From: an uncultured Acidobacteriota bacterium
GTDB taxonomy: Bacteria > Acidobacteriota > Thermoanaerobaculia > Multivoradales > DATKCC01
Assembly (NCBI GenBank): GCA_963837945.1
Contig: CAWIQD010000024.1
Location: forward strand, 11,469 to 75,468
Length of the DNA: 64,000 bases
Direction of reading: 5' to 3'
Positions 1 to 19,073 of the stretch are shown here, piece by piece. Both the position numbers and the translations under genes were made by a program. The stretch's first letter is position 1. Every line of letters starts with the position of its first letter. The notes under the pieces were generated by a model. That model was not told where the DNA came from and made no database searches. It saw only the letters and a program-made list of their open reading frames with translations.

Positions 1-23
1 GCCAAGGACTTGAGAGGGGTGGA

Positions 24-2621
24 GTGGAAATCGGCGAGGGACCCTTCGGGGGATTGCGACACGGAGCCGTCGGTCGTCGCATCACTGCCTACCTTCGTGG
101 AAATCGGCGAGGGACCCTTCGGGGGATTGCGACATGCATTGCAGTCGCATCAGCGTAGATCTGCTTCGCGTGGAAATCGGCGAGGGACCCTTCGGGGGAT
201 TGCGACACTTCAACTGCTGGCCGTTTGCACGCTTGGCCTCCGTCGGTGGAAATCGGCGAGGGACCCTTCGGGGGATTGCGACATGCGCGTACCATTAGTC
301 CTGGCGTCGGCGAGCTGCTCGGTGTGGAAATCGGCGAGGGACCCTTCGGGGGATTGCGACCGATCGAGCACCAGGTCGGCCGAGCTCCGCCAGGTCTGCT
401 CGGTGGAAATCGGCGAGGGACCCTTCGGGGGATTGCGACACGTTCAGCGCTCGGTCGTCGAACGCCCTCCGTGATCGTGGAAATCGGCGAGGGACCCTTC
501 GGGGGATTGCGACATCGTTCCGCCAGCGTCGCTGTGACCTGCTGCTCCGTGGAAATCGGCGAGGGACCCTTCGGGGGATTGCGACAGAGACGCGTGCATC
601 CGGCGAGCATCCGCCGCCTCGCGTGGAAATCGGCGAGGGACCCTTCGGGGGATTGCGACACAGCACGCGTCGGACTCTGCGCCCGCACGGCTGCGGTGGA
701 AATCGGCGAGGGACCCTTCGGGGGATTGCGACATCGGTGTACTGTCTGGCATCGATGCGTTACCTCCTGTCAGTGGAAATCGGCGAGGGACCCTTCGGGG
801 GATTGCGACACGACTTGCGGCCGACGGTGATCGCGACCAGTACCATCGAAGTGGAAATCGGCGAGGGACCCTTCGGGGGATTGCGACGCTCTAGAGCCGC
901 CGTGAACATCCGGCGGCTTCGGCCGCGTGGAAATCGGCGAGGGACCCTTCGGGGGATTGCGACATCTGACGTACTTTCGCGGCTATCGACGCACCTCATG
1001 GTGGAAATCGGCGAGGGACCCTTCGGGGGATTGCGACAGCTGCCCGTCGAGTCCGATGATGTCATGATCGAGCACCGTGGAAATCGGCGAGGGACCCTTC
1101 GGGGGATTGCGACTTCAGCAACGACCGCCGGCAGTTGTTCGGTCCTCATGTGGAAATCGGCGAGGGACCCTTCGGGGGATTGCGACATTTGACGAAGTCC
1201 AGACCTGTTTTATTCGCACCTCCGGCTCCAGTGGAAATCGGCGAGGGACCCTTCGGGGGATTGCGACATGCTTCGACGACGGCTTCGTGACAACCTCCTT
1301 CCTTGGTGGAAATCGGCGAGGGACCCTTCGGGGGATTGCGACGCTGCAGGTACTGAGTCGACGATGCATCGCATCCAGCGGTGGAAATCGGCGAGGGACC
1401 CTTCGGGGGATTGCGACATTCCGAAGTTCGCCGGGAACGCGGCAGCCGATCGCGTGGAAATCGGCGAGGGACCCTTCGGGGGATTGCGACATTTCGTGAC
1501 GCTGATCTCCGTCCGGAATGCATGATCTGAGTGGAAATCGGCGAGGGACCCTTCGGGGGATTGCGACTCGCAATTCCTCTGACGCTAGAACATCGCGAGG
1601 ATCGGCGTGGAAATCGGCGAGGGACCCTTCGGGGGATTGCGACGGCCGACGACGCACCATGATGCACTCGACCGGTGTCCTGTGGAAATCGGCGAGGGAC
1701 CCTTCGGGGGATTGCGACATTGCAGTCATGAAGATCATCGGCGACCTCCGTGTTGACTGTGGAAATCGGCGAGGGACCCTTCGGGGGATTGCGACCACAG
1801 AAATTGTCGTCGGGAACACCCACCGGATTGACGTGGAAATCGGCGAGGGACCCTTCGGGGGATTGCGACATGATGACGAGGATCGGGTGATAGCACCACC
1901 ATCATGACGTGGAAATCGGCGAGGGACCCTTCGGGGGATTGCGACATGAAACATCCTTCTTTCCCCCGACTGCCATGATTAGAGTGGAAATCGGCGAGGG
2001 ACCCTTCGGGGGATTGCGACATTGGGGCGACAATGGACTCGTCCATGTCGAAGTCAGAGGTGGAAATCGGCGAGGGACCCTTCGGGGGATTGCGACATCC
2101 GCTTGGTCCTGGCATGTTGCGTTGCTCCCTTCGTGGAAATCGGCGAGGGACCCTTCGGGGGATTGCGACATGTTGGTGCGGTCCATCGGAGTCTCCTTTA
2201 TCTGCCGTGGAAATCGGCGAGGGACCCTTCGGGGGATTGCGACATATACCCCCGCACGGAGTCAGTAACGTTGACCCCGTTAGTGGAAATCGGCGAGGGA
2301 CCCTTCGGGGGATTGCGACATCCGACGGTACCGAGATGAAGCCGGACATGGACGTCTCTGTGGAAATCGGCGAGGGACCCTTCGGGGGATTGCGACACTC
2401 GCGTACTGCCTTCGGGGTCCCCGATGGCGTACTGGTGGAAATCGGCGAGGGACCCTTCGGGGGATTGCGACACTGCGCGGAGAAGCTACTGCATAGCTTC
2501 CCTCCTTAGTCTGTGGAAATCGGCGAGGGACCCTTCGGGGGATTGCGACATCCCAGTCCACGCTGGGCACGCGACCGTCCGAGTGGGTGCAGATCGGCGA
2601 GGCACGTCCGCCGGACTTCGT
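24..2621 (+). CRISPR. CRISPR array 1: 34 copies of the 37-nt repeat GTGGAAATCGGCGAGGGACCCTTCGGGGGATTGCGAC with 33 spacers of 35-44 nt, followed by a degenerate terminal repeat at ~2584-2621
   Basis: I counted repeat ends directly at 60, 133, 206, ... 2549, giving a period of ~73-81 nt. The distal repeat GTGGGTGCAGATCGGCGAGGCACGTCC... is degenerate, which places the leader upstream at the window start. The leader-repeat junction CAAGGACTTGAGAGGGGTGGAG is also found in front of array 2. Confidence 0.95.
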
Positions 2622-2827
2622 TGCTCGTAGACAGGTGAGCCCGAGAGGTGGCGGACGGCGGGGCCCGGCCTCTGGCCTCGTGGCCTGGGTCGGGTCAGGT
2701 CAGGCCAGGTGCTGTCCTGACGGGGTGTTGGCAGATCGGCGGCTCTCGGGCGGCGGGGCAGAACCGGGCCGAGGCGCCGCTCCGGCGGCGGCTGGTCGCT
2801 CTCGAGACGGGTGAGCGCCCAAAGCGG

Positions 2828-3058
2828 CTACTCGCCGCCGCGCTTCCGGAGCTCTCGTCTCGCCGCCCGGATCAGGCGATCCCGCGACCACCCGGAGACG
2901 CTCAGGTCGGAGCGCTCCGCCGCTCGGCGCAGGAGCTCCAGGTCCGACTCCCTCATCCGCAGTCGAATCGCCGCCTCGAACCGCTCGGTGGGCCTCTTCT
3001 TGGGGCGAGCCATGGCCGGACTGTAGGCCGATACGATCAGCCCGTCAACCCTTGACAA
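2828..3058 (-). CDS. Small ribbon-helix-helix (RHH, CopG/MobC-like) DNA-binding protein; the alternative start at 3013 gives 61 aa
   Basis: The sequence ARPKKRPTERFEAAIRLRMRESDLELLRRAAERSDLSVSGWSRDRLIRAARREL shows the typical RHH beta-strand plus two helices pattern. Confidence 0.45.
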   Translation of the reverse strand: MSRVDGLIVSAYSPAMARPKKRPTERFEAAIRLRMRESDLELLRRAAERSDLSVSGWSRDRLIRAARRELRKRGGE

Positions 3059-4140
3059 AGGCTTGTTTTTCGGCCTACAATAACCAGATGGTCGATGACC
3101 TGATTCGGGGTGATGGCGCGGGGCGGGAAGGCGGCTCCGGGAGGACCTGTCCCGCGTGCGAGACCCCGGTGATCAAGTACGGCAAGACGGCCGCCGGGCG
3201 CCAGCGGTACTGGTGTCGGAGTTGCCGCAGCACCACGTCGGACGCCGCTCCTCGATCGCCGATCCATCCCATGCGGATTCCGCTCGAGCGCGCGGTGCTG
3301 TGCCTGCGGCTCCTGGTCGAGGGCAGCAGCATCCGGGCGGCCGAGCGGATCACCGGCACCCACCGGGACACGATCGGTCGGCTGCTGCTCCTGGCCGGGG
3401 GGCGGTGCGAGAGGCTCCTCGCCGAGCTGGTGACGGACGTCGAGGTCCACGACGTCGAGACCTCCGAGCTCTGGGCCTTCGTGGGGATGAAGGAGACGAC
3501 CCGGGAGCGGCTGGGCTTGGGCGACCCGCGGGTGGGCGACGCCTACGCGTTTCTCGCCATGGAGCGAGATTCGAAGCTGATCCTCGCCTGGCACCTGGGC
3601 CGGCGCACGGCCGAGCACACGGACGCGTTCGCCGAGAAGCTCGGCCGCGCGACCGCCGGCCGTTTCCAGCTCACGACCAGTGGGCTCGCGGCCTATCGCG
3701 AGGCCGTGAGCTTCCACTTGGGCGAACGCACGGACTACGCGACGCTGGTCAAGGAGGTCGGACCGGGGAAGGGCTCGGACGAGGGCCGCCGGCTGCCTCC
3801 GCGGATCGTGGGCGTGAAGAAGAACCGCGTCCATGGCGATCCGGATCCGGCGCGGGTTTGCACGTCTCACGCCGAGCGCGGAGCGCTGACGTTCCGGATG
3901 CAGTCGCGGCGCTTCACGCGGCGGACGAACGCCTTCTCGAAGTCTTGGAGGCACCACCGTGCGGCCCTGGCGCTCCAGCTCGCTCACTACAACCTCTGCT
4001 GGATGCACGCCTCCATCCGCATGACGCCGGCCATGAAGGCCGGGGTCGTCGGGAGGCCCTGGAAGCTTGAGGAGCTCCTGGCCGACGGGGGATCAGGGCC
4101 CGCGAGCGGGCTCTGATTTCGCCTCGTCGATTCCCGCGAG
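3030..4140 (+). mobile_element. IS1-family insertion sequence (boundaries approximate; imperfect terminal motif ATCAG(AG)CCCG near 3035 and 4120)
   Basis: A single fused InsAB-like transposase ORF. Weak terminal inverted similarity. No clear target-site duplication seen. Confidence 0.45.
3052..4116 (+). CDS. IS1-family transposase (fused InsA zinc-finger/HTH + InsB DDE domain)
   Basis: The N-terminal CPACETPVIKYGKTAAGRQRYWCRSCRST matches the IS1 InsA zinc ribbon (CPSC...NGKSTAGHQRYLCSHCR). The motif ELWAFVGMKE and the C-terminal RRTNAFSKS...HYNLCWMH match InsB motifs. Confidence 0.75.
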   Translation: MTKACFSAYNNQMVDDLIRGDGAGREGGSGRTCPACETPVIKYGKTAAGRQRYWCRSCRSTTSDAAPRSPIHPMRIPLERAVLCLRLLVEGSSIRAAERITGTHRDTIGRLLLLAGGRCERLLAELVTDVEVHDVETSELWAFVGMKETTRERLGLGDPRVGDAYAFLAMERDSKLILAWHLGRRTAEHTDAFAEKLGRATAGRFQLTTSGLAAYREAVSFHLGERTDYATLVKEVGPGKGSDEGRRLPPRIVGVKKNRVHGDPDPARVCTSHAERGALTFRMQSRRFTRRTNAFSKSWRHHRAALALQLAHYNLCWMHASIRMTPAMKAGVVGRPWKLEELLADGGSGPASGL

Positions 4141-4503
4141 CTCGCGGCACATTTTCCGGGCGAGCTCGTGGAGCTCCTGGGCGTAGCGAGCCGCGAAGGC
4201 GCGCAGCCGCGGGCTCGGGCTCCAGTGACCTCGCTGGTCACGCGGCTCGGCGAGCTCTCGGAGGTCTTCGACGCACGCCATCACGTCGGCGACGACCGCC
4301 TCGGTCCACGCGGCGTGCTCATCGCGGCTCGGATCGGGGCCGGTCTGCCAGGTATCCCAGCGCACGTAGTCGGCGAGGATCTTGCCGACCTGCTCGACGG
4401 CCCGCCGGTCGCTCGGGTCCTCGAAGCGCCAGAGGAGAGCCTGACGCATGGCGGTCGGCAGAGGCGGATAGGGCTCGCCCTCGTCATCGACGACCCGGAC
4501 CAT
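4093..4503 (-). CDS. Hypothetical protein (hypB), translationally coupled downstream of radC
   Basis: The start MVRVVDDEGEPY overlaps the radC stop (ATGA). No recognisable domain. Confidence 0.4.
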   Translation of the reverse strand: MVRVVDDEGEPYPPLPTAMRQALLWRFEDPSDRRAVEQVGKILADYVRWDTWQTGPDPSRDEHAAWTEAVVADVMACVEDLRELAEPRDQRGHWSPSPRLRAFAARYAQELHELARKMCRELAGIDEAKSEPARGP

Positions 4504-5225
4504 CACAACAGGCGCCTGTCCCGGAAGGAGGCCCAGCGCTGGGCGCCGCCGAGGATGATGTGGTCCGCGAGCCGGACTCCCACGGCCTCGCACGCCTCCG
4601 CCAGGCGCCGGGTGAAGCGGATGTCTTCTATGGTCGGGGACGGATCGCCCGACGGGTGCGTGTGGAAGACGACCACGCTCTCCGCCGCGCGGTCGAGGGC
4701 GAGAGCGATGATCTGGCGCGGCTCGACCGAGGCTCTCGTCAGCGTGCCGCGGAACAGCTCCGCCATGCCCACGAGCCGCCGCCGGGTGTCGAGGAAGAGG
4801 GCGCCCATCACCTCCTGGTCTCGGAGGACGTAGCGCAGCGCCAAGTAGCGGGCCACCTCGTCTGGCCGCCCCATGGGCTCTCGCTCGGGGACCTCGGCCC
4901 GGGCGAGGCGCCGGGCGAGCTCGAGCGCGGCGAGGACCGAGGCGGCCTTCACCTCGCCCAGGCCGCGGCGCTGGAGGGCCTCGGGGCGGATGCCCACCAG
5001 GCCGGGGAGCCCGGAGGTCTCCTCGAGGATCTCGCGGGCGAGCTCCAGGGAGCAGACGTCGCGCGAGCCGTGGCCCAGGACGAGGGCGAGCACTTCGGGG
5101 TCGGAAAGGGCTTCGCCACCGCTCCGAAGCAGGCGCTGGCGCGGGCGCTCGTCGGGGGGCATCTCCCGGATGAGGCTCGGGAGACCGCTTCTGGAGGGTC
5201 GGGCCCTGGGACGCCGGCGGGCCAT
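4503..5225 (-). CDS. radC: RadC-family JAB/MPN domain protein (UPF0758)
   Basis: Contains the JAMM motif HTHPSGDPSPTIEDIRFTRRL and the conserved RadC N-terminal helix-hairpin region (EVLALVLG). The true start is the internal Met at 5225; the 363-aa track ORF has a spurious N-terminal extension. Confidence 0.85.
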   Translation of the reverse strand: MARRRPRARPSRSGLPSLIREMPPDERPRQRLLRSGGEALSDPEVLALVLGHGSRDVCSLELAREILEETSGLPGLVGIRPEALQRRGLGEVKAASVLAALELARRLARAEVPEREPMGRPDEVARYLALRYVLRDQEVMGALFLDTRRRLVGMAELFRGTLTRASVEPRQIIALALDRAAESVVVFHTHPSGDPSPTIEDIRFTRRLAEACEAVGVRLADHIILGGAQRWASFRDRRLL

Positions 5226-5587
5226 CAGCCGTCCTCCCGGCCGTCGGCCCACTCGGCCCAGTCGGCGAAAGCCGCGGCGAAGTGGCGCTCCAGCTCTTCG
5301 GGCGTCCAGGCGAGGGCCCGGTCGGCGCCGGCGAAGGCGCTGTCCGAGCCCGGCGAGTCCGCCGAGTCCTCGGCGCCGTGGCCCACGACCCAGCAGCGGG
5401 TCGCCTCGGCCGCGAAGAGAATCCGGAAGCGCTCGCGGTCGCCGCCCTCGAGGCCCGTCTCGGCGGGCGGGAGGCAAGAGAGAGTCTCGGCCGCGAGGTG
5501 CAGAAGGCCGAGACCGATGGAGAGGGTGACCCGAAGCTCGTCGTTCGTCGGGTCGGCGGGCGCGATACGATCCCTCAAGCTGCTCAT
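5225..5587 (-). CDS. Hypothetical acidic protein (hypA), first gene of the hypA-radC-hypB operon
   Basis: GAGGAG ribosome-binding site 8 nt upstream of the ATG. Its stop overlaps the radC start (ATGA). No domain recognised. Confidence 0.35.
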   Translation of the reverse strand: MSSLRDRIAPADPTNDELRVTLSIGLGLLHLAAETLSCLPPAETGLEGGDRERFRILFAAEATRCWVVGHGAEDSADSPGSDSAFAGADRALAWTPEELERHFAAAFADWAEWADGREDG

Positions 5588-5982
5588 GAGGCACGCTCCT
5601 CGTGAGTGGTCAGGCCCGGCGGGTCGCTAGCGGCTTCCCGCCGGGCCGCTCCGTGGTTTCCGGGCTCGCATGGCCCCGGCTGTTCGGCCCAACCTACCCC
5701 GCCGTCAAGGCCCAGAGGTAGCCAACACGCCTTTGGGACAGCACTCCTCGTCGCAAGTAGTTGCTCGAAGGGTACGTCTTGCGCTAACCTCCGGGGAGGC
5801 CGAAAACGTGGGGAGGTTAGCGCAGACCCCGGAAAGCGTCGAAGCTCTTTGAAATCAGAGGGTTACCGAGATTCGTCCGGTTCTGGCCTCGCCGGTCTTG
5901 CCCCTCGCCGAGGCCCAGTCTGGGGAGGTTAGCGGAAATGGCCTTCCAACTCACTGAGCCACAAGGACTTGGGAGGGGTGGA
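5588..5982 (+). promoter_or_regulatory. Leader of CRISPR array 2; contains a hairpin GCGCTAACCTCC-N19-GGAGGTTAGCGC (~5781-5823) and a third copy of GGGGAGGTTAGCG at ~5931
   Basis: Non-coding region between the divergent hypA start and the first repeat. Its last 23 nt (CAAGGACTTGGGAGGGGTGGAG) are shared with the array 1 junction. Confidence 0.6.
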
Positions 5983-8900
5983 GTGGAAACCGGCGAGGAA
6001 CCTTTCGAGGGATTGCGACACGAGGCTGCCGAAGATGAGGGTGACTAAGCTCATGAGTGGAAACCGGCGAGGAACCTTTCGAGGGATTGCGACATTCTAC
6101 CGACTCTTTTCAGAGTCTAGGATTTCGCTGTGGAAACCGGCGAGGAACCTTTCGAGGGATTGCGACTGCTCGGAGACGGGATTCATGCACTCTTGCCCTC
6201 CGTGGAAACCGGCGAGGAACCTTTCGAGGGATTGCGACCATTGCGCGACTCCGGCCGCCGCTGTCAGGCTTTCGTGGAAACCGGCGAGGAACCTTTCGAG
6301 GGATTGCGACTACGTCCCTGGCCATCCCTCTCGGCGAACCTGTGGAAACCGGCGAGGAACCTTTCGAGGGATTGCGACCAGTGAGCGTCGACGTCATCCT
6401 TTCTCCGTGGAAACGCAGGTTTCGAGGTGGAAACCGGCGAGGAACCTTTCGAGGGATTGCGACATGTAGCGTGCCGACGATCGAGCTCAGTGCATAGCTC
6501 GGGTGGAAACCGGCGAGGAACCTTTCGAGGGATTGCGACATTGAACTGCGACTCGTCCGCACGAGTCATCTTCCGCTGTGGAAACCGGCGAGGAACCTTT
6601 CGAGGGATTGCGACATGTCTGGGCGTGACGGTCAATCTCCGACTCCTCCTCCGTGGAAACCGGCGAGGAACCTTTCGAGGGATTGCGACCATTGCTCGAT
6701 GCCGGCGTCGCTTTCCGAATTCGAGTGGAAACCGGCGAGGAACCTTTCGAGGGATTGCGACTGTACGACGCCGCGGCCGTTGGTCTCGGCGATCCGGGTG
6801 GAAACCGGCGAGGAACCTTTCGAGGGATTGCGACACTGAAACGTGTCGTCGAGGAATCGGCTATCCTCGCCTGGGTGGAAACCGGCGAGGAACCTTTCGA
6901 GGGATTGCGACATCTTCAGGACACGTCGCGTTCGTGAAGTCGTCGGCTCCTTGTGGAAACCGGCGAGGAACCTTTCGAGGGATTGCGACATGTCCGGAGT
7001 CGGTTCGAGGTCGGCATCGTCACCCTGCGTGGAAACCGGCGAGGAACCTTTCGAGGGATTGCGACATGTCGACTCCTGACCGGCTGACGGGCTGCGATAT
7101 CCTGGGTGGAAACCGGCGAGGAACCTTTCGAGGGATTGCGACGTGATGCACGTCGATCCGATGCAGTCACTGCCGTCTCCGGGGTGGAAACCGGCGAGGA
7201 ACCTTTCGAGGGATTGCGACATCGTCCGACAGGTCGCAGGGCGACTCGTTAGGTGGAAACCGGCGAGGAACCTTTCGAGGGATTGCGACATGTCGATTCC
7301 TGACTCGCTCCGGATGTCGTATGTCCTGTGGAAACCGGCGAGGAACCTTTCGAGGGATTGCGACATGAGAGTCTCCGCGCAGGATGCCGTCTCGTCGAGT
7401 GGAAACCGGCGAGGAACCTTTCGAGGGATTGCGACACTCGAACTCGTCGTCACAGGCCACTGGCGCGTGCTGTGGAAACCGGCGAGGAACCTTTCGAGGG
7501 ATTGCGACATCTCGACGGAACTTGCGCGATCCCGTCGATGCAGTGGAAACCGGCGAGGAACCTTTCGAGGGATTGCGACATCTCAGACGCTGCGTCGCTG
7601 GCATCGCTCGCTGCGTGGAAACCGGCGAGGAACCTTTCGAGGGATTGCGACATCTCGTGGCTTGCATGTCTTCCAATCCTGCTCGACGTGGAAACCGGCG
7701 AGGAACCTTTCGAGGGATTGCGACACTGGATGATCGCTTGTGTTCGTTGATCCTCGTCGAGGTGGAAACCGGCGAGGAACCTTTCGAGGGATTGCGACTT
7801 CAGCGAGGCTTCGCATGACTTAGCATCCTCCGGGTGGAAACCGGCGAGGAACCTTTCGAGGGATTGCGACATTTGCGGCTCCTGCCGAGAGCTCGTTACC
7901 CGAAGTGGAAACCGGCGAGGAACCTTTCGAGGGATTGCGACACTTGACGTGGTCAGGCCGCGAGTCGCCTACTGCGTGGAAACCGGCGAGGAACCTTTCG
8001 AGGGATTGCGACATCTCTGGCACCGCTCGGCGACGGCAGCTCCGTTCATGCGATACCTTGTGGAAACCGGCGAGGAACCTTTCGAGGGATTGCGACCCGA
8101 TGACTGCCAGAGTCTTCCAGAACATCTGCGTTCCGTGGAAACCGGCGAGGAACCTTTCGAGGGATTGCGACATGTCGTCCTGCGCCTGCGTCGGCTTAGT
8201 CGCAGTGTGGAAACCGGCGAGGAACCTTTCGAGGGATTGCGACATTCCGGGCAGTACGCTTTTCTCAGCCTCAACCTTGGGTGGAAACCGGCGAGGAACC
8301 TTTCGAGGGATTGCGACATCGCTCGAGTCGATTCATCTTGGCCTCCTTAAGTGGAAACCGGCGAGGAACCTTTCGAGGGATTGCGACATTCTACGATCCC
8401 GGCTCACTCTTACACGCCCTCCTGTGGAAACCGGCGAGGAACCTTTCGAGGGATTGCGACACGGTCGAGGTCTCGTCGGTGACATGGCCAGTTCTCCACG
8501 TGGAAACCGGCGAGGAACCTTTCGAGGGATTGCGACATACAGGAACTCCCTGTCGACGAGCATGGAGGTCCGAGTGGAAACCGGCGAGGAACCTTTCGAG
8601 GGATTGCGACATCCGAAGGACTGCCCTCGGCCGCGTCGTCGCTGTCTAAGTGGAAACCGGCGAGGAACCTTTCGAGGGATTGCGACACTTGCTGCTGCAC
8701 CCATGGTGCCGCAGCAGACCAGTCGGTGGAAACCGGCGAGGAACCTTTCGAGGGATTGCGACAGCTCTTCCGGGACGCATCCCGAGAAATTCCAACCGAT
8801 CGTGGAAACCGGCGAGGAACCTTTCGAGGGATTGCGACCTTACCTGGCGAAGCGGAGGCCATGCTCTGCGGTCGGGTGGAAACCGGCGAGGAACCTTTCG

Positions 8901-9584
8901 AGGGATTGCGACATTTTTTTCTGCCTCGAGAAGACAAGCGGCTTGCTGTGTGGAAACCGGCGAGGAACCTTTCGAGGGATTGCGACCGTTGTCTCCAACC
9001 GCTCTCCTCCACTCCGTCCACTGAGTGGAAACCGGCGAGGAACCTTTCGAGGGATTGCGACCCATTTCAAGAGAGACCAGTTGACACTGACCCCTCCCGT
9101 GGAAACCGGCGAGGAACCTTTCGAGGGATTGCGACACAATCGTGCGACGGAGAGATCGAAGTGGAGGACTTTCGCCGTGGAAACCGGCGAGGAACCTTTC
9201 GAGGGATTGCGACAGAGACTTGCAGGAATTGGATCATACCATCCTCCTTTTGGGTGGAAACCGGCGAGGAACCTTTCGAGGGATTGCGACTGGTCAGGGC
9301 CTAGGTAGCGGCCGTCGCCGTCGAAGTGGAAACCGGCGAGGAACCTTTCGAGGGATTGCGACAGCTCAACGATGAGTAGTTTCACGACGTCCTCCCGCGG
9401 TGGAAACCGGCGAGGAACCTTTCGAGGGATTGCGACATTGTGCCATCCGGGTGTAGTCCACGCCGTCGCCGGCGCTGGAAACCGGCGAGGAACCTTTCGA
9501 GGGATTGCGACGAGCGCTGGGCGAGCGGTCGATGGTTCCACGTCGAGGTGGAAACCGGCGAGGAACCTTTCGAGGGATTGCGAG
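5983..9584 (+). CRISPR. CRISPR array 2: 49 copies of the 37-nt repeat GTGGAAACCGGCGAGGAACCTTTCGAGGGATTGCGAC with spacers of ~31-43 nt; one 20-nt partial repeat at ~6407-6426; the penultimate repeat has G1->C and the last repeat ends GCGAG
   Basis: Direct counting of repeat ends (6019, 6093, ... 9511, 9584). The repeat differs from the array 1 repeat at 4 of 37 positions (8, 17, 21, 26). The same leader-repeat junction motif precedes it. Confidence 0.95.
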
Positions 9585-9746
9585 CGGTGAGGGTGAGCGC
9601 CGCGGCGCTCGCAGTGGTGATGACTGGCCGAGGCCCAGGAAGAGAAGGCGAGCGGAGCGGCGGTCCGACGCGCGTGGTTCGTTCAGCGTCGGAGCGGTTT
9701 TCGGGCGTTCTGGCGAGGCACAGCCGGATTCGAGGATGGAGCGCGG

Positions 9747-9913
9747 TGATTCCGCCGGCCTGGCGTGTACACCTCGTCTACGCCATTCTCGCCCTCGCCA
9801 GATACCTCCGCACCCTCGCGGCCCGCCGGGACTTCATTGCGGAGGCCCTGGACGACGAGACGCTGGTCCTCTTCGGCCGCACCCAGATGCGTCGCCTGGC
9901 GGGGGCCGGCTGA
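9747..9913 (+). pseudogene. Remnant / short paralog of the 3' end of the 10530..11105 gene (C-terminal peptide ...EALDDETLVLFGRTQMRRLAGAG)
   Basis: About 35 aa and ~130 nt, including the post-stop region, are homologous to the 3' end of the gene at 10530-11105. It lies immediately after the array 2 terminal repeat. Confidence 0.3.
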
Positions 9914-10041
9914 GCCCCTGCTCCCCGACCGGCCGGAACGGCTGATCCCGCCCCGGCCTTCACCATCTTCCCCGCATCGGGCGGGGAGGCGAGTCCATCT
10001 CCGCTCTGCTCGATCGGGCTCGTCCTGAAAGCTCTGGGACC

Positions 10042-10257
10042 TCACCTCGTCGCGTCGATGGAATCCAGGAGCCGTAAGGCTTCGGCCCGGTCCCCCTTCG
10101 CGGCGCGTGCCCGGAACCGCGTCTCGGCATCGAACTCGGCCAGGGCCTGGGTCGAGAGCTCTTCGACGAGGCGGTTCAGGCTGATCTTTCGACGGCGGGC
10201 GAGGTCTCGCAGTCGCTCGTGGGTGTCGTCGGGCAGTCGGATGGTCATCGTTCCCAT
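10042..10257 (-). CDS. RHH-type antitoxin-like protein (CopG/Arc family); no cognate toxin identified
   Basis: MTIRLPDDTHERLRDLARRRKISLNRLVEELSTQALAEFDAE is a classic RHH antitoxin N-terminus. The internal start is at MGTMTIRL. Confidence 0.55.
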   Translation of the reverse strand: MGTMTIRLPDDTHERLRDLARRRKISLNRLVEELSTQALAEFDAETRFRARAAKGDRAEALRLLDSIDATR

Positions 10258-10363
10258 GCGTCCATCTCCTGGAGAAGTGCCTCGGGCTCGAGTACGCGGA
10301 GGTCGGGAAACCGCAGCTCGGTCGCTCGGAAGTCGCGGGCGGCGAGTCCGGCGCCTCTCGGGT

Positions 10364-10392
10364 TTGACTTTCCGCCGCGTCTCCGCTAGGCT
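10364..10392 (+). promoter_or_regulatory. Candidate sigma70-like promoter TTGACT-N17-TAGGCT upstream of the 10530 gene
   Basis: Near-consensus -35 and a plausible -10 with 17-nt spacing, ~140 nt upstream of an ATG that has an AAAGGAGAAA ribosome-binding site. Confidence 0.3.
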
Positions 10393-10529
10393 CGTTCCAA
10401 CGAAGCCGCTTCCCGGCCCCGTCCTCCGCGGAGGCGCGAGGTCACGGGTCACCGGGAGCGAAACGAAAGCGGCCCGGGCGAGCTCGAACCTCACCCGGGC
10501 CTGACCCGCGAAAGGAGAAAGCACCTCCA

Positions 10530-11105
10530 ATGCGAGCCGAGACAGAGAGTAGCAGGACTTCGTCCCCCGCCCGTCGTTCTTCCAGCTTCACCGCGCCGGC
10601 CAACGCCTTCTCGGCCGCGTTCCTCGACGCCGCCCGGCGCCGGCGGGACGCGGCCGAGCCGGAGGACGCCCCGCGCGCTCCGGCGCTCGCCGCCGGCGCG
10701 CTCGCCGCCGGGCCCTTCGAGGTCGAGGCGGTGCCGGCCGGCTCGGGGCGGCTCTGGGCGGTGGTCCGCCGGGGCGAGCGGGTGGCCGAAGGGCACCCGG
10801 CCGTGGCGGTCTTCCTGGAGCGGACGGCCGCCCTCCTGGCGGCGGCGGTGCTGCCGGCGGAGGCGTCGCCCAATCACCTCCAGGTCGGGGAGAAGGCGAA
10901 GCGCCTGGGCCTGCCGGTGCACGACGGCCGGCGCCACCTGGGGCACCTCGCCCGGCCCCACGAGCACTTCGCGCGGGACCTCCACGCCGCCCGGACGCTC
11001 GCGGCCCGCCCGGACTCGCTGGTGCTCCTGGCCGAGGCGCTCGACTACGAGACCCTGGTCCTCTTCGGCCGGGCGCTCATGCGCCGGCTGGAGCGGGCCG
11101 GCTGA
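10530..11105 (+). CDS. Hypothetical protein (191 aa) with a conserved C-terminal motif ALDYETLVLFGRALMRRLERAG
   Basis: Strong ribosome-binding site AAAGGAGAAA. A paralogous remnant lies at 9747-9913. Confidence 0.5.
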   Translation: MRAETESSRTSSPARRSSSFTAPANAFSAAFLDAARRRRDAAEPEDAPRAPALAAGALAAGPFEVEAVPAGSGRLWAVVRRGERVAEGHPAVAVFLERTAALLAAAVLPAEASPNHLQVGEKAKRLGLPVHDGRRHLGHLARPHEHFARDLHAARTLAARPDSLVLLAEALDYETLVLFGRALMRRLERAG

Positions 11106-11207
11106 GGCGCCGGGCGCTCGGCCACCGGCCGGGGCGGGCGCGACCCCGCCCCGGCCGGGTTCTTCCGGTCGTCGGCGCGAGGATACGTCGCTGGGGCCAC
11201 CCGCTCT

Positions 11208-11762
11208 TTACGGCAGCAGATCGGCGACGGCGACCGGTCCCCGGAGGGCCGCCGAGGAGAGCTGCTCGCCGTGGGCCGCGACCCGGTGCTCGGTGAAGCC
11301 GTCGCCTTCGGGCGCTCTGAAGACCTCCAGGCGACCCTCCGCCACGTTCACCAGCCAGACCTCCGGAATGCCGTGTCGCGCGTAGAGCGGGAGCTTGCGG
11401 TGGCGGTCGAAGGCGAGGCTCGAGTCCGCGACCTCCACCACGAGGGCGGCGGTCGCCGGGTGGGCCCCGAGGTAGTCCCGGGGGCGACCTGCGACGACCG
11501 CCACGTCGGGCTCCGGCTCGGAGTCCTGCCCGAGCGCCAGAGGGAGCTGGACCCGGAGACAGTACCCCTCGGCCAGCGCCGCGTCGAGGGCCTCGTAGAC
11601 CAGCTGGATCGTGCCGGCGTGCCGCGCGTTCTGCGGTGTCATCTCCAGGATCTCCCCCTCGATCAACTCGAGCCGCTCGTCTTCCTGGAAGACGCCCTGC
11701 TCGATCAAGCGGTCGTACTCCTCGCGGGTCCACTTGCGGGGCTGGTTGACGGCGACGCTCAC
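11208..11762 (-). CDS. Uma2-family (DUF820) PD-(D/E)XK putative endonuclease
   Basis: RKWTREEYDRLIEQGVF...ERLELIEGEILEMTPQNARHA is the canonical Uma2 N-terminus. Confidence 0.8.
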   Translation of the reverse strand: MSVAVNQPRKWTREEYDRLIEQGVFQEDERLELIEGEILEMTPQNARHAGTIQLVYEALDAALAEGYCLRVQLPLALGQDSEPEPDVAVVAGRPRDYLGAHPATAALVVEVADSSLAFDRHRKLPLYARHGIPEVWLVNVAEGRLEVFRAPEGDGFTEHRVAAHGEQLSSAALRGPVAVADLLP

Positions 11763-11897
11763 AGCTCGGTCTCCTCGGTTGATCAGTATAGCGGCGAGCG
11801 TGTTGCCCTACGGAGGGATCCCTCGACTCGCTGCGCTCGCTCGGGATGACAAGGGGGGGGCGGCGCTCGCTCGGGATGACGGCGAGGGAGCTCGCCG

Positions 11898-14800
11898 TCA
11901 GAACGGGTTGCCGACGGCCAGGTAGAAGTGGAAGCGGGTGGTGGCGCCGGGGTCGGGGTCGAGCTGGTAGCCGAAGCCGGCGCGCACGGGGCCGATCGGC
12001 GAGACGTAGCGCACGGCGACTCCGACGCCGGTCTTGACGTCGCGCGGGTCGACGTCGCGCCAGTCGGGCCAGACGTTGCCCGCGTCCACCCACAGCACGC
12101 CGCCGACCGGCCCCCAGACCGGGAAGCGGTAGTCGAGGTTCGCGAGCAGCAGGCCGTTGCCGCCGCGGCCGCGGCCGTCGGCGAAGAGGGTCGTGCCCGG
12201 GATGCCGAGCTCGTCCTTGCCGTAGGCCCGGTGGCTGAAGTCGCCGCCGGCGAAGAAGCGCTCGTCGATCGGGATCTTCAGGTTCGGCGGCTCGGGGGGC
12301 TGCGGCGCGCCCGAGGGCGTGGTGGTGTTGTTCTTGGTCGCGTCGACGAGCGGCGCGATGGCGCCGAAGCGGATGCTCCCCGCCAGGTGCCCGAAGCCGA
12401 GCGGCAGGTAGCGGGTGTGCTGGAGGAAGGTCTTGAGGAAGTTCGCGTCGGTCAGCCCCGGGATCGGGAACGCCCACTGGAAGCGGGCGCTGGCGCTCCA
12501 GCCGCGGGTCGGGTCGATCGGGTCGTTGCGCCGGTCGACCAGGATGTTGGGGACGACCGAGGAGATGTGGATGTCCTGGTCGCGCCGCTCGATGATCTGG
12601 GTCGGGTCGGTGATCTGCTGGGAGGCGGCGACGGTCAGGGTGGAGTTGATGATCCGGTAGTCGAAGGCGAGGCCGTAGCGCCAGACGTCCTCCTGCTTGA
12701 CCGCCTCGGCCTGGGTGACGATCCGGTCGACGTCGTAGCTCGGCAGCTCCTCCTGCTGGAAGGCCACGTTGTAGACCAGCGGGATGTGCCAGCGGGTCAG
12801 GTCCGGCTGGTCGAGGGCGACCCGGGCGAGGCGCTCCTTCTGGCCGTAGCGCAGGTCGGTCTGGAGGGTGAAGGCGCGGCCGAAGAGGTTGCCCTGGCGG
12901 TAGCCGACGAGCCCGGCGAAGCCGGTGTCCGTGTCGTAGCCGAGGCCGTAGCTCACCCGCCGCGTGCGCCCCTCCTGGACCCGGATCACGACGTCGCGCT
13001 CCTGCTCGGAGAGGTCGGACGGCCCGAGCTCCACCTGGGCGCGCGAGAAGATCCCGAGGCCGTAGAGGTCGCGCTCCGCCTCGAGGAGCCGCGTCGGGCT
13101 GACCGGCTCGCCGGGGTCGAGGTCCACCGCGTGCTCGATCACGTCGTCGTCGGTCTTGACGTTGCCCCGGACGATCACCCGGTCGACCCGGGTCTGCGGC
13201 CCCTCGATCACCTGGATCGTCAGGTCGACCAGGCTGTGGTCGGCGTTCCAGGTCTCGGTCGAGGAGACCTGGGTCGAGAGGTATCCCTTCTCCTCGTAGC
13301 GCCCGCGGATCTGGCGCAGGCTGTCCTCGAGCAGGAGCGGATGGAACGGCCCGCCGGCGTGGAGCGGCAGGTCCTTGCGCAGGTCGTCCTCCGAGAGCGC
13401 CTCGACGCCCTGGAAGGAGAGGTCGACCAGCTGGCGGCGCATCCCCTCCTCGATCGGCACCCTGAGCGTCAGGTTGCGGCCGTCGGCCTGGACGTCCGGC
13501 GGGCCGACCTTGTAGCTGGCGTACCCCTGGAGGGCGTAGAAGGAGCGCACGTTTTCGAGGTCGTCCTGGAGCACCGCGTCGACCAGCTTGCCGCTGCCCA
13601 GGGTGAGGAGTCGCTTGGGCTTGGTCTCCATGAGCTCGGCGAGCTTGCCGTCGCTCACCTGCCGGTTGCCGTCGAAGCGGATCTCCTGGAGGGTGTAGAC
13701 CGGGCCGGGCTCGACCCGGAAGGTGAGCCGGAGCGCGCCGTCCGCCGTCGTCTCGTCCCAGGTGACCGCGACCTTCCAGTGCCCCTTCTCCTGGTAGTAG
13801 CGCTTGACCCGGTCGGCCGCCTGGAGCACCAGCGCCTCGTCGTAGCCGTCCTCGCCGAGGAACGGCAGCAGGTCGTTTTTCTCGAGCTCCTTGCGCGCGA
13901 CGCCCACGATCTCCACCGTCACCAGCGGGCCGAGGGTCACCGGGTAGGCGAGGTCGACCCGGTGGCCCTCGCGGTCCTGGGTCTCCTTGGCCTCGCCGAC
14001 CTGCGCCTTGCGGTACTTCTGCTTGACCAGCCAGGCCTGGAGGCGCTCGGCGTCGTCGTCGACGGTGTCGCGGAGGTAGGGCTCGCCGGGGCGGGCGCGG
14101 AGCTGCTCGACGAGGGTCGCGGGCCGGAACGAGCCCAGCTCGCCCTCGAAGCTCACCGTGCCGATCGTCGAGCGCGCTCCGGCCGCGACCTCGAAGGTCA
14201 CCACCGAGCGCTTGGTCTCGTCGTTCGTGTCGACGGCGAGGTGGACCCGGGCGGAGAAGTAGCCGCGCTTCTCGAACAGGTCCTGGAGGCGGTAGACGCT
14301 CCTGAGCAGCCGGCTCTCGATCAACGGCTGGCCGGCGGCGACCAGCAGCTCGCTCTCGAGGTCGTGGCGGTCGAGCTTGCCGGTCTCGCCCACGACCGAG
14401 ACCTCGTCGACCTGCACCGCGGCCCAGACCGCCACCACCACGACCACCTGCTCGGCCGCCGGGTCGGAATCGACCGGCACGGCGGGCGGCGCGAGCCGCT
14501 CGCCCGGCTCGGCGGGACGGGTGTAGAGCTCCACCTCGTAGGCCGCGCCGGTCGCCTGGAGGTTGCGCAGGGTCCGGCGCACCCCGCGGTCGGTGAGCCG
14601 CGTGCCCGGCTCGATCGCGATCAGCTGGCGCAGCTCGCCGGCCGGCCCGAGCGGGGCGTCGCTTCGCACCTCGATGCGGGCGACGACCGGCCCGCGGCCG
14701 GCGACCGGCCCGGGCAGCGCCGGCGGCGCCTCGTCCCCCGCCACGACCACGTCGGGCGGCTCGACGGTCTCGACCGGCGGCTCGCGGGGCGGGATCGCCG

Positions 14801-15011
14801 GGCCCTCGACCGTCGTCGCGTCCTCGGGAGAGAGGACCGGGGCCGGCTCGGGCGCCGGCGGCGGCGCCTGGTCCTGGGTCGGATCGGGGGCCTGAGCCCG
14901 GGCCTGATCCTGGTCCTGGCCCCGGGCCGGGGCGCCCGCCAGCAGCAGCGCGGCGAGGAGCCCGGGAGCCGAGCTCCGGAGCAGGAGCCGGAGTGCGCCG
15001 CGCGCCGTCAT
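11898..15011 (-). CDS. tamA: Omp85-family outer membrane protein TamA/BamA-like, with a POTRA region, a long Pro/Ala/Gln-rich N-terminal linker and a C-terminal beta-barrel ending VGNPF
   Basis: POTRA-like repeats and the surface-antigen barrel motifs (RVSYGLGYDTDTG...GFGYQLDP). The start ATG overlaps the tamB stop (ATGA). Confidence 0.75.
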   Translation of the reverse strand: MTARGALRLLLRSSAPGLLAALLLAGAPARGQDQDQARAQAPDPTQDQAPPPAPEPAPVLSPEDATTVEGPAIPPREPPVETVEPPDVVVAGDEAPPALPGPVAGRGPVVARIEVRSDAPLGPAGELRQLIAIEPGTRLTDRGVRRTLRNLQATGAAYEVELYTRPAEPGERLAPPAVPVDSDPAAEQVVVVVAVWAAVQVDEVSVVGETGKLDRHDLESELLVAAGQPLIESRLLRSVYRLQDLFEKRGYFSARVHLAVDTNDETKRSVVTFEVAAGARSTIGTVSFEGELGSFRPATLVEQLRARPGEPYLRDTVDDDAERLQAWLVKQKYRKAQVGEAKETQDREGHRVDLAYPVTLGPLVTVEIVGVARKELEKNDLLPFLGEDGYDEALVLQAADRVKRYYQEKGHWKVAVTWDETTADGALRLTFRVEPGPVYTLQEIRFDGNRQVSDGKLAELMETKPKRLLTLGSGKLVDAVLQDDLENVRSFYALQGYASYKVGPPDVQADGRNLTLRVPIEEGMRRQLVDLSFQGVEALSEDDLRKDLPLHAGGPFHPLLLEDSLRQIRGRYEEKGYLSTQVSSTETWNADHSLVDLTIQVIEGPQTRVDRVIVRGNVKTDDDVIEHAVDLDPGEPVSPTRLLEAERDLYGLGIFSRAQVELGPSDLSEQERDVVIRVQEGRTRRVSYGLGYDTDTGFAGLVGYRQGNLFGRAFTLQTDLRYGQKERLARVALDQPDLTRWHIPLVYNVAFQQEELPSYDVDRIVTQAEAVKQEDVWRYGLAFDYRIINSTLTVAASQQITDPTQIIERRDQDIHISSVVPNILVDRRNDPIDPTRGWSASARFQWAFPIPGLTDANFLKTFLQHTRYLPLGFGHLAGSIRFGAIAPLVDATKNNTTTPSGAPQPPEPPNLKIPIDERFFAGGDFSHRAYGKDELGIPGTTLFADGRGRGGNGLLLANLDYRFPVWGPVGGVLWVDAGNVWPDWRDVDPRDVKTGVGVAVRYVSPIGPVRAGFGYQLDPDPGATTRFHFYLAVGNPF

Positions 15012-18000: not shown

Positions 18001-19073
18001 ATGCCGTCCGGGACGACGCGCAGCTTGCCCGAGACGTCGGAGAGCACCCGGCGGTCCTGGACCAGGCGGCGCGACGAGAGCCCGCCCTCGACCGCCCAGC
18101 CCTCGGGCCGCCAGAGCAGGCTGCCGTCGAAGCGGAAGGGGCCGGAGACCGGCGGCTCCTCGGCGTCGAGATACCCGAGGTCGGCGGCGAGCGCGACCTG
18201 GCCCTCCGCCGAGAGCTCGAGGTCCAGGCGCCGCGTCTCCTCCGGCACGAGGAGCGTGCCGTGGGCGGTGAGCCGGAGGTCCGGCCCGGTCAGCCGGGAC
18301 TCGACGATCTCGACCCGCTCGGGTCCGACCCGCACCTTGCCCGAGAAGGCCGCCACGTAGTGCTTCCCCGGCGGCAGCGTCACCTCCACCTCCTGGGCGG
18401 TGGCGAGCCCTTCGAGCTCGTTGCCGCCCTGGCCGCCGGTGCCGACGAGGCGGGCGAAGACCGCCTGGGCCCGGAGGTCGAACGGCAGCTCGAGCGTGTC
18501 GAGGTGGAAGCGCCCCTGCTCGGCGACCACGGCGCCGATCCGCACCTGCACCCGCCCGCCGCCGCCCTGGCCGGTGCCGAAACGGGGCAGGTTGTTCGAG
18601 CCGTCCTCGCGCACCTCGAGGTAGACCTCGGGGCGCTCGACGAAGACCTGGGTGATCTCGATCCGCGGCCGGTTCCAGCTCTCCCAGCCCTCGATCCGGG
18701 CGTGCAGGGTGAGCTGGGGGACGCGGGCCACGGGCGGCGCTCCGGGCCGGTCGCCCGGGATCACCACGTCGTCGAGCTCGATCGAGATCGGGTAGAGGGT
18801 CCAGTGGACGGCGCCCACCGAGAGGTCGCGCCCGAAGTAGCTCGAGAGGCGGGCCACGAGGAGGCCGCGGGCCCTCTCGCGCGCGCCTGGGCTCTGGAGC
18901 CAGACGTAGGCGCCGGCCACCACCAGGACCAGGAGGACCAGCAGGTAGACGACGCTGCGCAGCAGGCAGCCGCGGGCGCACCCGGTCCTCTGCCGGCGCG
19001 GGCCCTCGTCGCCGAGGCGCTCCGGGGCCTCCTCCCCGCCCGTGCCGGGCCGGGTGAGCTCCTCGTCGCTCAT
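15011..19073 (-). CDS. tamB: TamB/AsmA-like translocation and assembly module protein (DUF490 C-terminus ...IDARWDKRF); an apparent 1-nt frameshift near 17060 splits it into 19073-17057 and 17062-15011
   Basis: The N-terminal 672 aa in one frame and the C-terminal 683 aa in the adjacent frame are both clearly TamB-like. The junction ...LAGLETDLL/IADLSFD sits at a short A/T run. Confidence 0.7.

What the first reader, a model, noticed from the sequence alone, without database searches (positions are those of the whole stretch)
24..9584. Covariation between the two repeat variants preserves a CCN-UUCG-NGG hairpin directly upstream of a Thermus-like AUUGCGAC handle
Repeat 1 has ...ACC-C-TTCG-G-GGGATTGCGAC and repeat 2 has ...ACC-T-TTCG-A-GGGATTGCGAC. 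Positions 21 and 26 change together (C:G to U:A). This keeps a 3-bp stem closing a UUCG tetraloop, followed by G plus the 8-nt ATTGCGAC. The 3' 11 nt (GGGATTGCGAC) are identical to the end of the Thermus thermophilus type III repeat, whose Cas6 leaves the 5' handle AUUGCGAC. This predicts Cas6-type processing and a type III-like or Cas6-dependent type I effector, even though no cas genes are visible.
Basis: partly seen in the sequence, partly recalled or inferred. Interest (0 to 1): 0.55.

Follow-up and report, generated by a model that had tools for sequence, protein, structure and literature searches.

The report
Type III CRISPR arrays with Thermus-like repeats
This is an ordinary Cas6/type III-B design, but the spacers evolve in a way I could not explain.

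Summary
Window 24-2549 holds 34 identical 37-nt repeats and 5983-9584 holds 49 (47 identical). The two variants differ at four positions (8, 17, 21, 26), not two.

Positions 21 and 26 switch C:G to U:A inside a CCN-UUCG-NGG hairpin, followed by G and then AUUGCGAC. Ten repeat types found next to homologous Cas6 genes all keep this hairpin. Pair 21:26 is C:G or U:A and never mismatched. RNAfold's competing hairpin is not conserved.

The last 11 nt equal the Thermus thermophilus type III repeat. The window has no cas gene. In a MAG with a collinear array, Cmr4-5-6 and a SAVED protein lie next to that array. In other relatives a Cas6 abuts the array, and its predicted fold is closest to the T. 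thermophilus Cas6 enzymes. The verdict is a new member of a known kind.

Three side findings are less ordinary:
- About 30% of spacers are antisense to ribosome-binding-site plus start-codon regions, in a fixed geometry.
- 74% of spacers begin with A.
- The array is collinear with the relative's, and the flanks are 98-100% identical, yet paired spacers are only 65-97% identical. This is unexplained.

The parts
1..23 (+). Last 23 nt of the leader of array 1; the rest lies off the window
   Evidence: GCCAAGGACTTGAGAGGGGTGGA matches the end of the array 2 leader (5960-5982, CACAAGGACTTGGGAGGGGTGGA) at 21 of 23 positions. This fixes + as the transcribed strand.
24..2549 (+). CRISPR array 1: 34 identical 37-nt repeats (variant 1, C21:G26) and 33 spacers of 35-44 nt
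42..51 (+). Example of the repeat hairpin in the first repeat: C19 C20 C21 / UUCG / G26 G27 G28
   Evidence: Covariation and conservation across 9-10 repeat types. Hairpin energy is -4.5 kcal/mol.
53..60 (+). Example of the predicted 8-nt crRNA 5' tag ATTGCGAC; predicted Cas6 cut between 52 and 53
   Evidence: Identical to the end of the T. thermophilus type III repeat. The cut site is inferred by analogy and not measured.
2550..2625 (+). Trailing spacer and decayed terminal repeat of array 1
   Evidence: GGTGCAGATCGGCGAGGCAC... resembles repeat positions 1-20.
5630..5982 (+). Leader of array 2
   Evidence: 353 of 353 nt identical to the MAG leader. No sigma-70 consensus promoter found.
5983..9584 (+). 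CRISPR array 2: 49 repeats (variant 2, U21:A26; the last two each carry one change) and 48 spacers of 31-48 nt
6407..6426 (+). Truncated repeat (GTGGAAACGCAGGTTTCGAG) inside 'spacer 6'. It sits at the junction between spacers 1-5 and their diverged paralogues, spacers 7 and 9-11. It is probably a recombination scar.

Best explanation
These are two CRISPR arrays of a Cas6-processed type III-B (Cmr) system in an Acidobacteriota/Thermoanaerobaculia-like genome. Both are transcribed on the + strand from homologous leaders.

In the pre-crRNA each repeat forms a minimal hairpin: 3 bp (C19:G28, C20:G27, C/U21:G/A26) closing a UUCG loop. One unpaired G and the 8-nt tag AUUGCGAC follow.

A Cas6 of the T. 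thermophilus structural type would bind this hairpin and cut 8 nt before the spacer. That gives crRNAs with a 5'-AUUGCGAC tag, which load into a Cmr complex and pair with transcripts. A SAVED-domain protein is the likely downstream effector.

The C:G to U:A switch between the two arrays is a true compensatory change under selection for that hairpin.

Shown: the arrays, their orientation, hairpin conservation and covariation, the cas context in relatives, and the antisense bias of the spacers. Inferred: the cleavage site, loading into Cmr, and the presence of the cas genes in this genome, probably just upstream of window position 1.
For: Arrays and orientation:
- Leader similarity and terminal repeat decay fix the orientation.

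Hairpin:
- It is 100% paired in nine repeat types. Pair 21:26 is C:G in 6 and U:A in 3.
- RNAalifold predicts only this hairpin.
- The rival hairpin 12-16/21-25 is only 58% paired across the family.
- More distant repeats keep a 3-4 bp stem abutting the tag, with other pair types: CCGC/GCGG in L047, ACCC/GGGU in L059, CCCC/GGGG in L055, L067 and T. thermophilus.
- On a Cas6 tree the U:A repeats form a clade inside C:G repeats, and variant 1 (C:G) is nested within that clade. This implies two double changes.

cas genes in relatives:
- Cmr3-6 and SAVED lie next to the collinear array in the MAG.
- Cas6 abuts variant-1 arrays.
- Cas10/Cmr3/RAMP/Cas1 lie next to a variant array.
- The Cas6 model matches T. 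thermophilus Cas6 best.
- The last 11 nt equal the T. thermophilus repeat.

Spacers: an antisense start-codon-plus-SD pattern occurs in 24 of 81 spacers, against 7 on the opposite strand. Shuffles give a mean of 8.3 and a maximum of 16.
Against: - No cas gene lies in the 64-kb window, and its source contig could not be fetched. Presence of Cas6/Cmr in this genome is therefore unproven.
- An IS1-like transposase sits where the relative has SAVED/Cmr.
- Folding one repeat alone gives no signal. The z-scores are about 0, and the minimum-energy fold of both window variants uses another hairpin.
- The U:A hairpin is worth only -1.6 kcal/mol, no better than the single-mutant U.G version.
- Only one of the three pairs varies among the close relatives.
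- No Rfam CRISPR-DR family matches.
- The Cas6 family has no sequence-level PDB relative.
- No protospacer was found.
Confidence: 0.85

Rival explanations
1. The arrays are orphan or fossil arrays in this genome. The cas genes have been lost or disrupted, and the arrays persist without function.
For: - No cas gene lies in 64 kb.
- An IS1-like transposase and mobile-element genes (RHH, RadC) sit between the arrays, where the relative has SAVED/Cmr.
- No leader-end spacer has been gained since the split from the MAG array: spacers 1-5 pair up.
- The terminal repeats are decayed.
Against: - 81 of 83 repeats are perfect, and the 353-nt leader is 100% conserved against the MAG.
- The window begins only 23 nt upstream of array 1, so the cas genes may simply lie off the window.
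- Spacer end motifs and antisense bias are retained in both genomes.
Confidence: 0.15
2. The repeats serve a Cas6-dependent type I effector (I-B-like) rather than, or as well as, type III.
For: In T. thermophilus, Cas6 enzymes cross-process repeats, and type I-B and type III systems interact (PMC12102369).
Against: - Every relative with readable context shows only type III genes near the arrays: Cmr3-6, Cas10, RAMP fusions, SAVED, CorA.
- No Cas3, Cas8 or Cas5/7 of type I was seen.
- Spacers show a strong transcript-antisense bias, which DNA-targeting type I does not need.
Confidence: 0.07
3. The 21/26 co-change is coincidence. The repeat is unstructured or folds into the 12-16/21-25 hairpin that RNAfold prefers.
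For: The minimum-energy fold of both window variants uses 12-16/21-25, and C21U is also tolerated there as a G.U pair. Shuffle z-scores are about 0.
Against: - That hairpin is paired in only 58% of cells across nine related repeats and shows no double change.
- The 19-21/26-28 hairpin is paired in 100% of cells, never mismatched at 21:26, and is the only RNAalifold pair set.
- Distant family members keep a stem at the same place with different sequences.
Confidence: 0.03

Closest known systems
Thermus thermophilus HB8/HB27 type III-A/III-B arrays (repeat type 1, GTTGCAAGGGATTGAGCCCCGTAAGGGGATTGCGAC), processed by Cas6 TTHA0078 and TTHB231
   Same: - The last 11 nt, GGGATTGCGAC, are identical.
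- A G:C stem-loop lies just before an 8-nt tag.
- Repeats are 36-37 nt and spacers 31-48 nt.
- The Cas6 of this family has these two enzymes as its best structural matches.
- The effector genes are type III-B.
   Different: - The stem here is 3 bp plus an A.G juxtaposition instead of 4 C:G pairs.
- The loop is UUCG instead of GUAA.
- The 5' half of the repeat differs.
- The Cas6 is about 323 aa with an extra PF27225 N-terminal region. It shares only 14-20% identity and has no sequence-level PDB hit.
- The host is a mesophilic-soil Acidobacteriota lineage with 70.6% GC.
Type III-B (Cmr) systems with SAVED-domain ancillary effectors
   Same: In the relative with the collinear array, Cmr3, Cmr4, Cmr5 and Cmr6 are followed by a 413-aa SAVED-domain protein.
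   Different: The N-terminal ~150 aa of the SAVED protein matched no family, so its output activity is unknown. None of these genes is in the window itself.
Transcription-dependent spacer hotspots of Streptococcus thermophilus type III-A (PMC13575424 and its reference 34)
   Same: Spacers are antisense to transcripts and enriched near the 5' ends of genes. That paper reports hotspots about 10-50 bp downstream of start codons.
   Different: - Here the spacer spans the ribosome-binding site and start codon itself.
- The geometry is fixed: the anti-SD sits in the last ~10 nt and the start codon at spacer positions 14-24.
- There is also a 5' A/AT preference, whereas that paper reports no PAM or end motif.
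Static type III-A direct-repeat locus of Mycobacterium tuberculosis (from my own knowledge, not checked here)
   Same: It is a long type III array inherited vertically, without new leader-end spacers, that changes mainly by deletion or duplication of units.
   Different: In M. tuberculosis shared spacers are essentially identical between strains. Here shared spacers differ by 3-35% while repeats and flanks are essentially identical.

Membership tests
CRISPR array | Regularly spaced identical direct repeats separated by unique spacers of similar length | tested here: met
   There are 34 and 49 repeats of 37 nt and 81 spacers of 31-48 nt.
CRISPR array | Leader on one side and decay of the distal repeat(s) | tested here: met
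   The leader ends are homologous (1-23 vs 5960-5982). The last two repeats of array 2 are mutated, and a decayed remnant follows array 1.
Cas6-processed class 1 repeat (type I/III) | Short stem-loop immediately 5' of an 8-nt tag ending the repeat (AUUGNNAC-like) | tested here: met
   The hairpin 19-21/26-28 is conserved and covaries. The tag is ATTGCGAC. Relatives carry ATTGAGAC, ATTGAAAG, ACTGAAAG and ACTGCAAG.
Cas6-processed class 1 repeat (type I/III) | A cas6 gene in the same genome or locus | tested here: inconclusive
   There is none in the window by tblastn or Pfam. Cas6 (PF10040) abuts arrays with the same repeat in L002 and L085, and lies about 17-18 kb from the collinear array in the MAG contig.
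Cas6-processed class 1 repeat (type I/III) | crRNA 5' ends 8 nt upstream of each spacer | not testable with these tools
   This needs small-RNA sequencing or in vitro cleavage.
Type III-B (Cmr) system | Cas10/Cmr2 with Cmr3-Cmr6 RAMP genes next to the array | tested here: inconclusive
   These genes are absent from the window. Cmr3-6 flank the collinear array in the MAG. Cas10/Cmr3/RAMP flank the L086 array.
Type III-B (Cmr) system | Spacers complementary to transcripts (strand bias) | tested here: met
   Anti-SD 5-mers occur 82 times against 13 SD 5-mers on the crRNA strand. The antisense start+SD pattern occurs in 24 spacers against 7 (sign test p = 0.003). The targets themselves were not found.
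T. thermophilus repeat type 1 family | Repeat 3' end GGGATTGCGAC | tested here: met
   PMC12102369 Table 1 compared.
T. thermophilus repeat type 1 family | CCCC-GUAA-GGGG stem-loop and GTTGCAAG 5' end | tested here: not met
   Here the stem-loop is ACCC-UUCG-GGGG (3 bp plus A.G) and the 5' end is GTGGAAAT. It is related but not the same repeat.
Rfam CRISPR-DR families | Match to a curated CRISPR direct-repeat covariance model | tested here: not met
   There is no CRISPR-DR hit at the gathering threshold on the whole window, nor at E <= 10 on positions 1-420.

The most novel reading that the evidence does not exclude
The arrays are not passive records. Spacers may be captured from a defined footprint around translation starts, from about -18 to +22, roughly the size and position I recall for a ribosome-protected initiation region, with a 5'-AT(N)TC end motif. 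Existing spacers may also be replaced or renewed in place, without disturbing array order, repeats or flanks.

Candidate mechanisms are homology-directed integration next to the old spacer followed by loss of the old unit, or array-localised error-prone synthesis with repeats restored by gene conversion.

Either would explain why two genomes share a collinear array with perfect repeats and 98-100% identical flanks while paired spacers are only 65-97% identical, with shifted ends.
Probability: 0.12. Interest if true: 0.85.

Novelty: new member of a known kind. Interest (0 to 1): 0.38.

Why it matters
The repeat finding itself mainly adds a clean natural example. A single loop-closing base pair of a minimal Cas6 hairpin is kept by compensatory change, apparently twice, in an uncultured Acidobacteriota lineage. 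The Cas6 there is structurally nearest to the well-studied Thermus enzymes. This gives a ready-made mutant series for Cas6 specificity studies.

The spacer content matters more if it holds up. There is a strong, position-specific preference for antisense ribosome-binding-site/start-codon targets. There is also array collinearity with heavy spacer divergence between nearly identical flanks. The first bears on the open question of how RNA-targeting type III systems choose useful spacers. The second bears on how long-lived arrays evolve.

Tried and rejected
**Fetching the window's own contig to see upstream of array 1**
- Exact-protein look-ups with the RHH protein, RadC, the IS1-like transposase, an array ORF (P0035) and orf120 (P0037) all failed.
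- The source is a 91,873-nt NCBI/ENA contig that is not indexed.

**Protospacer hunting**
- Spacers against the rest of the window and all fetched loci gave only an 18-nt and a 16-nt chance-level match.
- Both arrays against 50,697 phage genomes gave nothing.
- Seven IMG/VR scans with conserved spacer cores, one of them written with degenerate codons, gave nothing.
- An eighth scan, for the repeat itself on viral contigs, also gave nothing.

**Host versus foreign origin of spacers**
- GC content does not help. Spacers are 59% GC and host translation-start windows 63%.

**Spacer differences as coding-type divergence of targets**
- Hand inspection of the few alignable coding parts showed no third-position excess.
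- Several indels break the reading frame.

**Assembly or polishing error as the cause of spacer divergence**
- I judged this unlikely, because 81 of 83 repeats and both flanks are perfect in the same stretch. It is not excluded.

**Looking for a third array version**
- orf120/RadC relatives in other contigs (L087, L088) have no array. They lie in mobile-element contexts.

**Other checks that gave nothing**
- The sigma-70 promoter scan of the leader found nothing.
- Sequence search of PDB with the Cas6 profile found nothing. Only the fold search worked.
Full report
**What is there**

The first 9.6 kb of the window hold two CRISPR arrays on the + strand.
- Array 1 (24-2549) has 34 identical copies of GTGGAAATCGGCGAGGGACCCTTCGGGGGATTGCGAC. 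One more spacer and a decayed repeat follow, to about 2625.
- Array 2 (5983-9584) has 49 copies of GTGGAAACCGGCGAGGAACCTTTCGAGGGATTGCGAC. Only the last two are altered, by one base each.
- The 23 nt before array 1 match the end of the 353-nt leader of array 2 at 21 of 23 positions. With the terminal decay, this fixes the orientation.
- The two variants differ at positions 8, 17, 21 and 26.

Between the arrays lie four genes:
- a small RHH gene;
- an IS1-like transposase (weak Pfam hits, below the gathering thresholds);
- a RadC gene;
- a 120-aa ORF.

The rest of the window is housekeeping and envelope genes plus a 6S RNA. There is no cas gene.

**Is the hairpin real?**

Folding either repeat alone is uninformative.
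- Energies equal those of shuffles (z = 0.13 and 0.28).
- The minimum-energy fold uses a different hairpin, 12-16 with 21-25, in which C21U is tolerated as a G.U pair.

I therefore collected related repeats without conditioning on the hairpin.
- A genome scan for the repeat with positions 17-28 left free found only two MAGs. One is an Acidobacteriota MAG (CAVUJU01, variant 2). The other is a Thermoanaerobaculia MAG (CAZIIB01, variant 1).
- In the latter a 323-aa PF10040 Cas6 starts right after the array.
- Its 34 homologues were aligned and used to fetch 74 metagenome loci and several longer contigs.
- Arrays next to these Cas6 genes gave about 17 distinct repeats.

Results for the nine ungapped 37-nt types:
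Pair 21:26 is C:G in six and U:A in three, and never mismatched.
- A tenth type, from L086, also has U:A.
- RNAalifold predicts exactly this hairpin and nothing else.
- RNAfold's alternative hairpin is paired in only 58% of cells.

Results for more distant repeats:
- They keep a 3-4 bp stem abutting the tag, but with other sequences: CCGC/GCGG, ACCC/GGGU and CCCC/GGGG.
- The loop of one U:A repeat is UACG, still of the UNCG class.

On a neighbour-joining tree of the Cas6 proteins, the U:A repeats form a clade nested in C:G repeats. Variant 1 (C:G) is nested inside that clade. The simplest history has two double substitutions. This step assumes that repeats track their Cas6.

Thermodynamically the hairpin is small. 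It is worth -4.5 kcal/mol with C:G and -1.6 with U:A, and the single mutant U.G scores the same as U:A. What is selected is more likely Cas6 recognition than stability. That last point is inference.

**What system it belongs to**

The MAG contig_14864 is syntenic with the window from 4344 to about 21,700. In window orientation the order is:
- Cmr4, Cmr5, Cmr6, then a SAVED-domain protein;
- RadC, orf120, the leader, then the array;
- orf191, Uma2, then Omp85 and TamB.

Cmr3 lies further upstream of Cmr4. Other observations fit the same picture.
- The MAG's Cas6 (P0003) lies about 17-18 kb away, beside a caspase-like protein, a CHAT protein and a sigma/anti-sigma pair.
- L086 has a Cmr1/Cas10 fusion, Cmr3, a fused RAMP protein and Cas1 next to a variant array.
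- L080 has Cas6, an array, CorA and large RAMP fusions.
- The Cas6 profile has no sequence-level PDB hit.
- Its AlphaFold model (pLDDT 86.8) matches T. thermophilus Cas6 TTHB231 and TTHA0078 first, and other Cas6 enzymes after them.
- The T. thermophilus type III repeat ends with the same 11 nt (PMC12102369 Table 1).

Whether this genome still has the genes is open, because the window starts 23 nt before array 1. No Rfam CRISPR-DR model matches. I file this as a new member of a known kind.

End biases:
- Sixty of 81 spacers start with A and 40 with AT.
- There is a weaker T at position 4, so many spacers start ATGTC or ATCTC.
- With the repeat end GAC, ATGTC makes the palindrome GACATGTC. This is read directly from the sequence.
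- A first-base A is also seen in several related arrays (L016-18, L028, L031) but not in others (L025, L040, L059).

Antisense bias:
- The 3' ends are pyrimidine-rich. Position -4 is C or T in 83% of spacers.
- Anti-Shine-Dalgarno 5-mers occur 82 times, 56 of them within 10 nt of the 3' end. SD-like 5-mers occur 13 times on the same strand.
- Twenty-four of 81 spacers read CAT/CAC, then 3-10 nt, then an anti-SD core. The reverse complements give 7 (p = 0.003), and shuffles give a mean of 8.3 and a maximum of 16.
- The start codon usually sits at spacer positions 14-24.

About 30% of crRNAs would therefore cover the ribosome-binding site and start codon of a target mRNA, from roughly -18 to +22.

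A recent paper reports transcription-dependent type III-A hotspots 10-50 bp downstream of start codons (PMC13575424). A 5'-of-gene bias therefore has precedent. The fixed geometry and end motif are not described there. No target was found, so flanking motifs and the nature of the targets remain unknown.

**An unexplained pattern**

Window array 2 and the MAG array are collinear.
- Twenty-five spacer pairs align in order (1-5 with 1-5, 12-37 with 6-32).
- Other positions are unrecognisable, and the trailer-end spacers are unrelated.

The paired spacers are nonetheless diverged.
- They are only 65-97% identical: 88% counting substitutions, 80% counting gaps.
- They carry 108 substitutions in an almost uniform spectrum (30 transitions, 78 transversions).
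- They carry many 1-3 nt indels.
- The first two tenths and the last tenth of the spacer are the most variable parts.

Everything around the spacers is nearly identical.
- Repeats are identical: 47 of 49 in the window and 38 of 40 in the MAG.
- The leader is 353/353 identical.
- RadC is 98.5%, orf120 99.4%, the 456 nt after the array 99.3%, orf191 98.6% and Uma2 100% identical.
- Beyond about 13 kb, housekeeping genes are only 80-91% identical.

The arrays therefore sit in a recently shared island of about 8.5 kb. Its RadC/orf120 module occurs elsewhere in a mobile-element context.

Diverged copies also occur within the window.
- Spacers 7, 9, 10 and 11 of array 2 are diverged copies of spacers 1, 3, 4 and 5. 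A truncated repeat (6407-6426) sits at the junction.
- Array 1 spacer 14, array 2 spacer 16 and MAG spacer 10 are three versions of one site.
- Nearby diverged duplicates also occur in array 2 (spacers 15 and 18) and in L086 (spacers 13 and 14).
- In other loci of the family, arrays show only identical or one-base-different duplicates.

Explanations I considered:
- **Two recombination tracts ending exactly in the terminal repeats.** This is possible but contrived.
- **Exchange of array cassettes between lineages through the repeats.** This moves the problem elsewhere without solving it.
- **In-place renewal of spacers from diverged targets.** This fits the shifted ends and the perfect repeats, but no such mechanism is known.
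- **Local error-prone synthesis, with repeats restored by gene conversion.** This fits the spectrum and the indels.
- **Assembly artefact.** This is unlikely given perfect repeats and flanks in the same stretch, but the window source, the MAG and L086 may all come from one long-read project.

The differences do not look like selection-filtered coding divergence. I leave this open and list the tests that would decide it.

**Verdict**

It is ordinary in kind: a Cas6/type III-B array family with Thermus-like repeats. The score is raised modestly for the spacer geometry and the unexplained mode of array divergence.

Noticed in passing
window 61-9547 (all 81 spacers): 74% of spacers begin with A and 49% with AT, with a weaker T at position 4 (many start ATGTC or ATCTC). 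Together with the repeat end GAC, ATGTC forms the palindrome GACATGTC. Several related arrays (L016-18, L028, L031) share the first-base A, and others do not.
   Followed up: partly
window 61-9547 (spacers), e.g. 733-772, 2170-2206, 2472-2512, 8318-8350, 9214-9253: About 30% of spacers are antisense to a Shine-Dalgarno sequence plus start codon. The anti-SD lies within the last ~10 nt and the start codon at spacer positions 14-24. Position -4 is a pyrimidine in 83% of spacers. Counts are 24 against 7 on the other strand. No targets were found.
   Followed up: partly
window 5983-9584 vs L083 (MAG CAVUJU01 contig_14864), also L001 and L003: The two arrays are collinear. Repeats are perfect and flanks 98-100% identical, including a 353/353 leader. 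The 25 paired spacers are nevertheless only 65-97% identical, with a uniform substitution spectrum, many small indels and shifted ends. Trailer-end spacers are unrelated.
   Followed up: partly
window 6020-6797, scar at 6407-6426: Spacers 7, 9, 10 and 11 of array 2 are diverged paralogues of spacers 1, 3, 4 and 5. A truncated repeat sits at the junction. The MAG has only one copy of the block.
   Followed up: partly
window 4344-13000 vs 13000-21700: Identity to the MAG changes sharply. It is 96-100% around the arrays and 80-91% in the adjacent housekeeping genes (Omp85, TamB, NAD kinase, FtsJ, PagL). This points to a recently exchanged island of about 8.5 kb. Its orf120-RadC module also occurs in a MobC/NikA mobile-element context (L088).
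   Followed up: partly
window 2829-4116: A small RHH gene (2829-3013, minus strand) and an IS1-like transposase (3088-4116) lie after array 1. The transposase gave only weak InsA zinc-ribbon and DDE_Tnp_IS1 hits, below the Pfam thresholds. They occupy the position where the MAG has SAVED/Cmr genes.
   Followed up: partly
window 33359-33542 (- strand): A 6S/SsrS RNA gene (Rfam RF00013, 79.3 bits) lies just upstream of the RNase Y gene (31716-33335).
   Followed up: no
window 11898-19073 (- strand): The 2391-aa ORF listed mechanically here is probably spurious. The MAG annotation and Pfam place an Omp85/POTRA gene and a TamB gene on this strand, read at least partly in another frame.
   Followed up: partly
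window 45264-49019, 54770-57238, 61678-63999: There are three paralogous sulfatase-TPR fusion proteins. Further TPR, PMT_2 glycosyltransferase and FG-GAP/ASPIC genes lie nearby, making a cluster of envelope or polysaccharide-related genes.
   Followed up: no
L086 9868-11314: In this related array the repeats are polymorphic at positions 8, 10, 12 and 17 only. The hairpin and tag (18-37) are invariant. This shows where constraint lies in the repeat.
   Followed up: no
L079 and L080 (relatives): Unusual accessory genes lie near the family's Cas6. In the MAG they are a caspase-like Peptidase_C14 protein, a TPR-CHAT protein and a sigma70/anti-sigma pair. In L080 they are CorA and three large RAMP-fusion proteins.
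   Followed up: no
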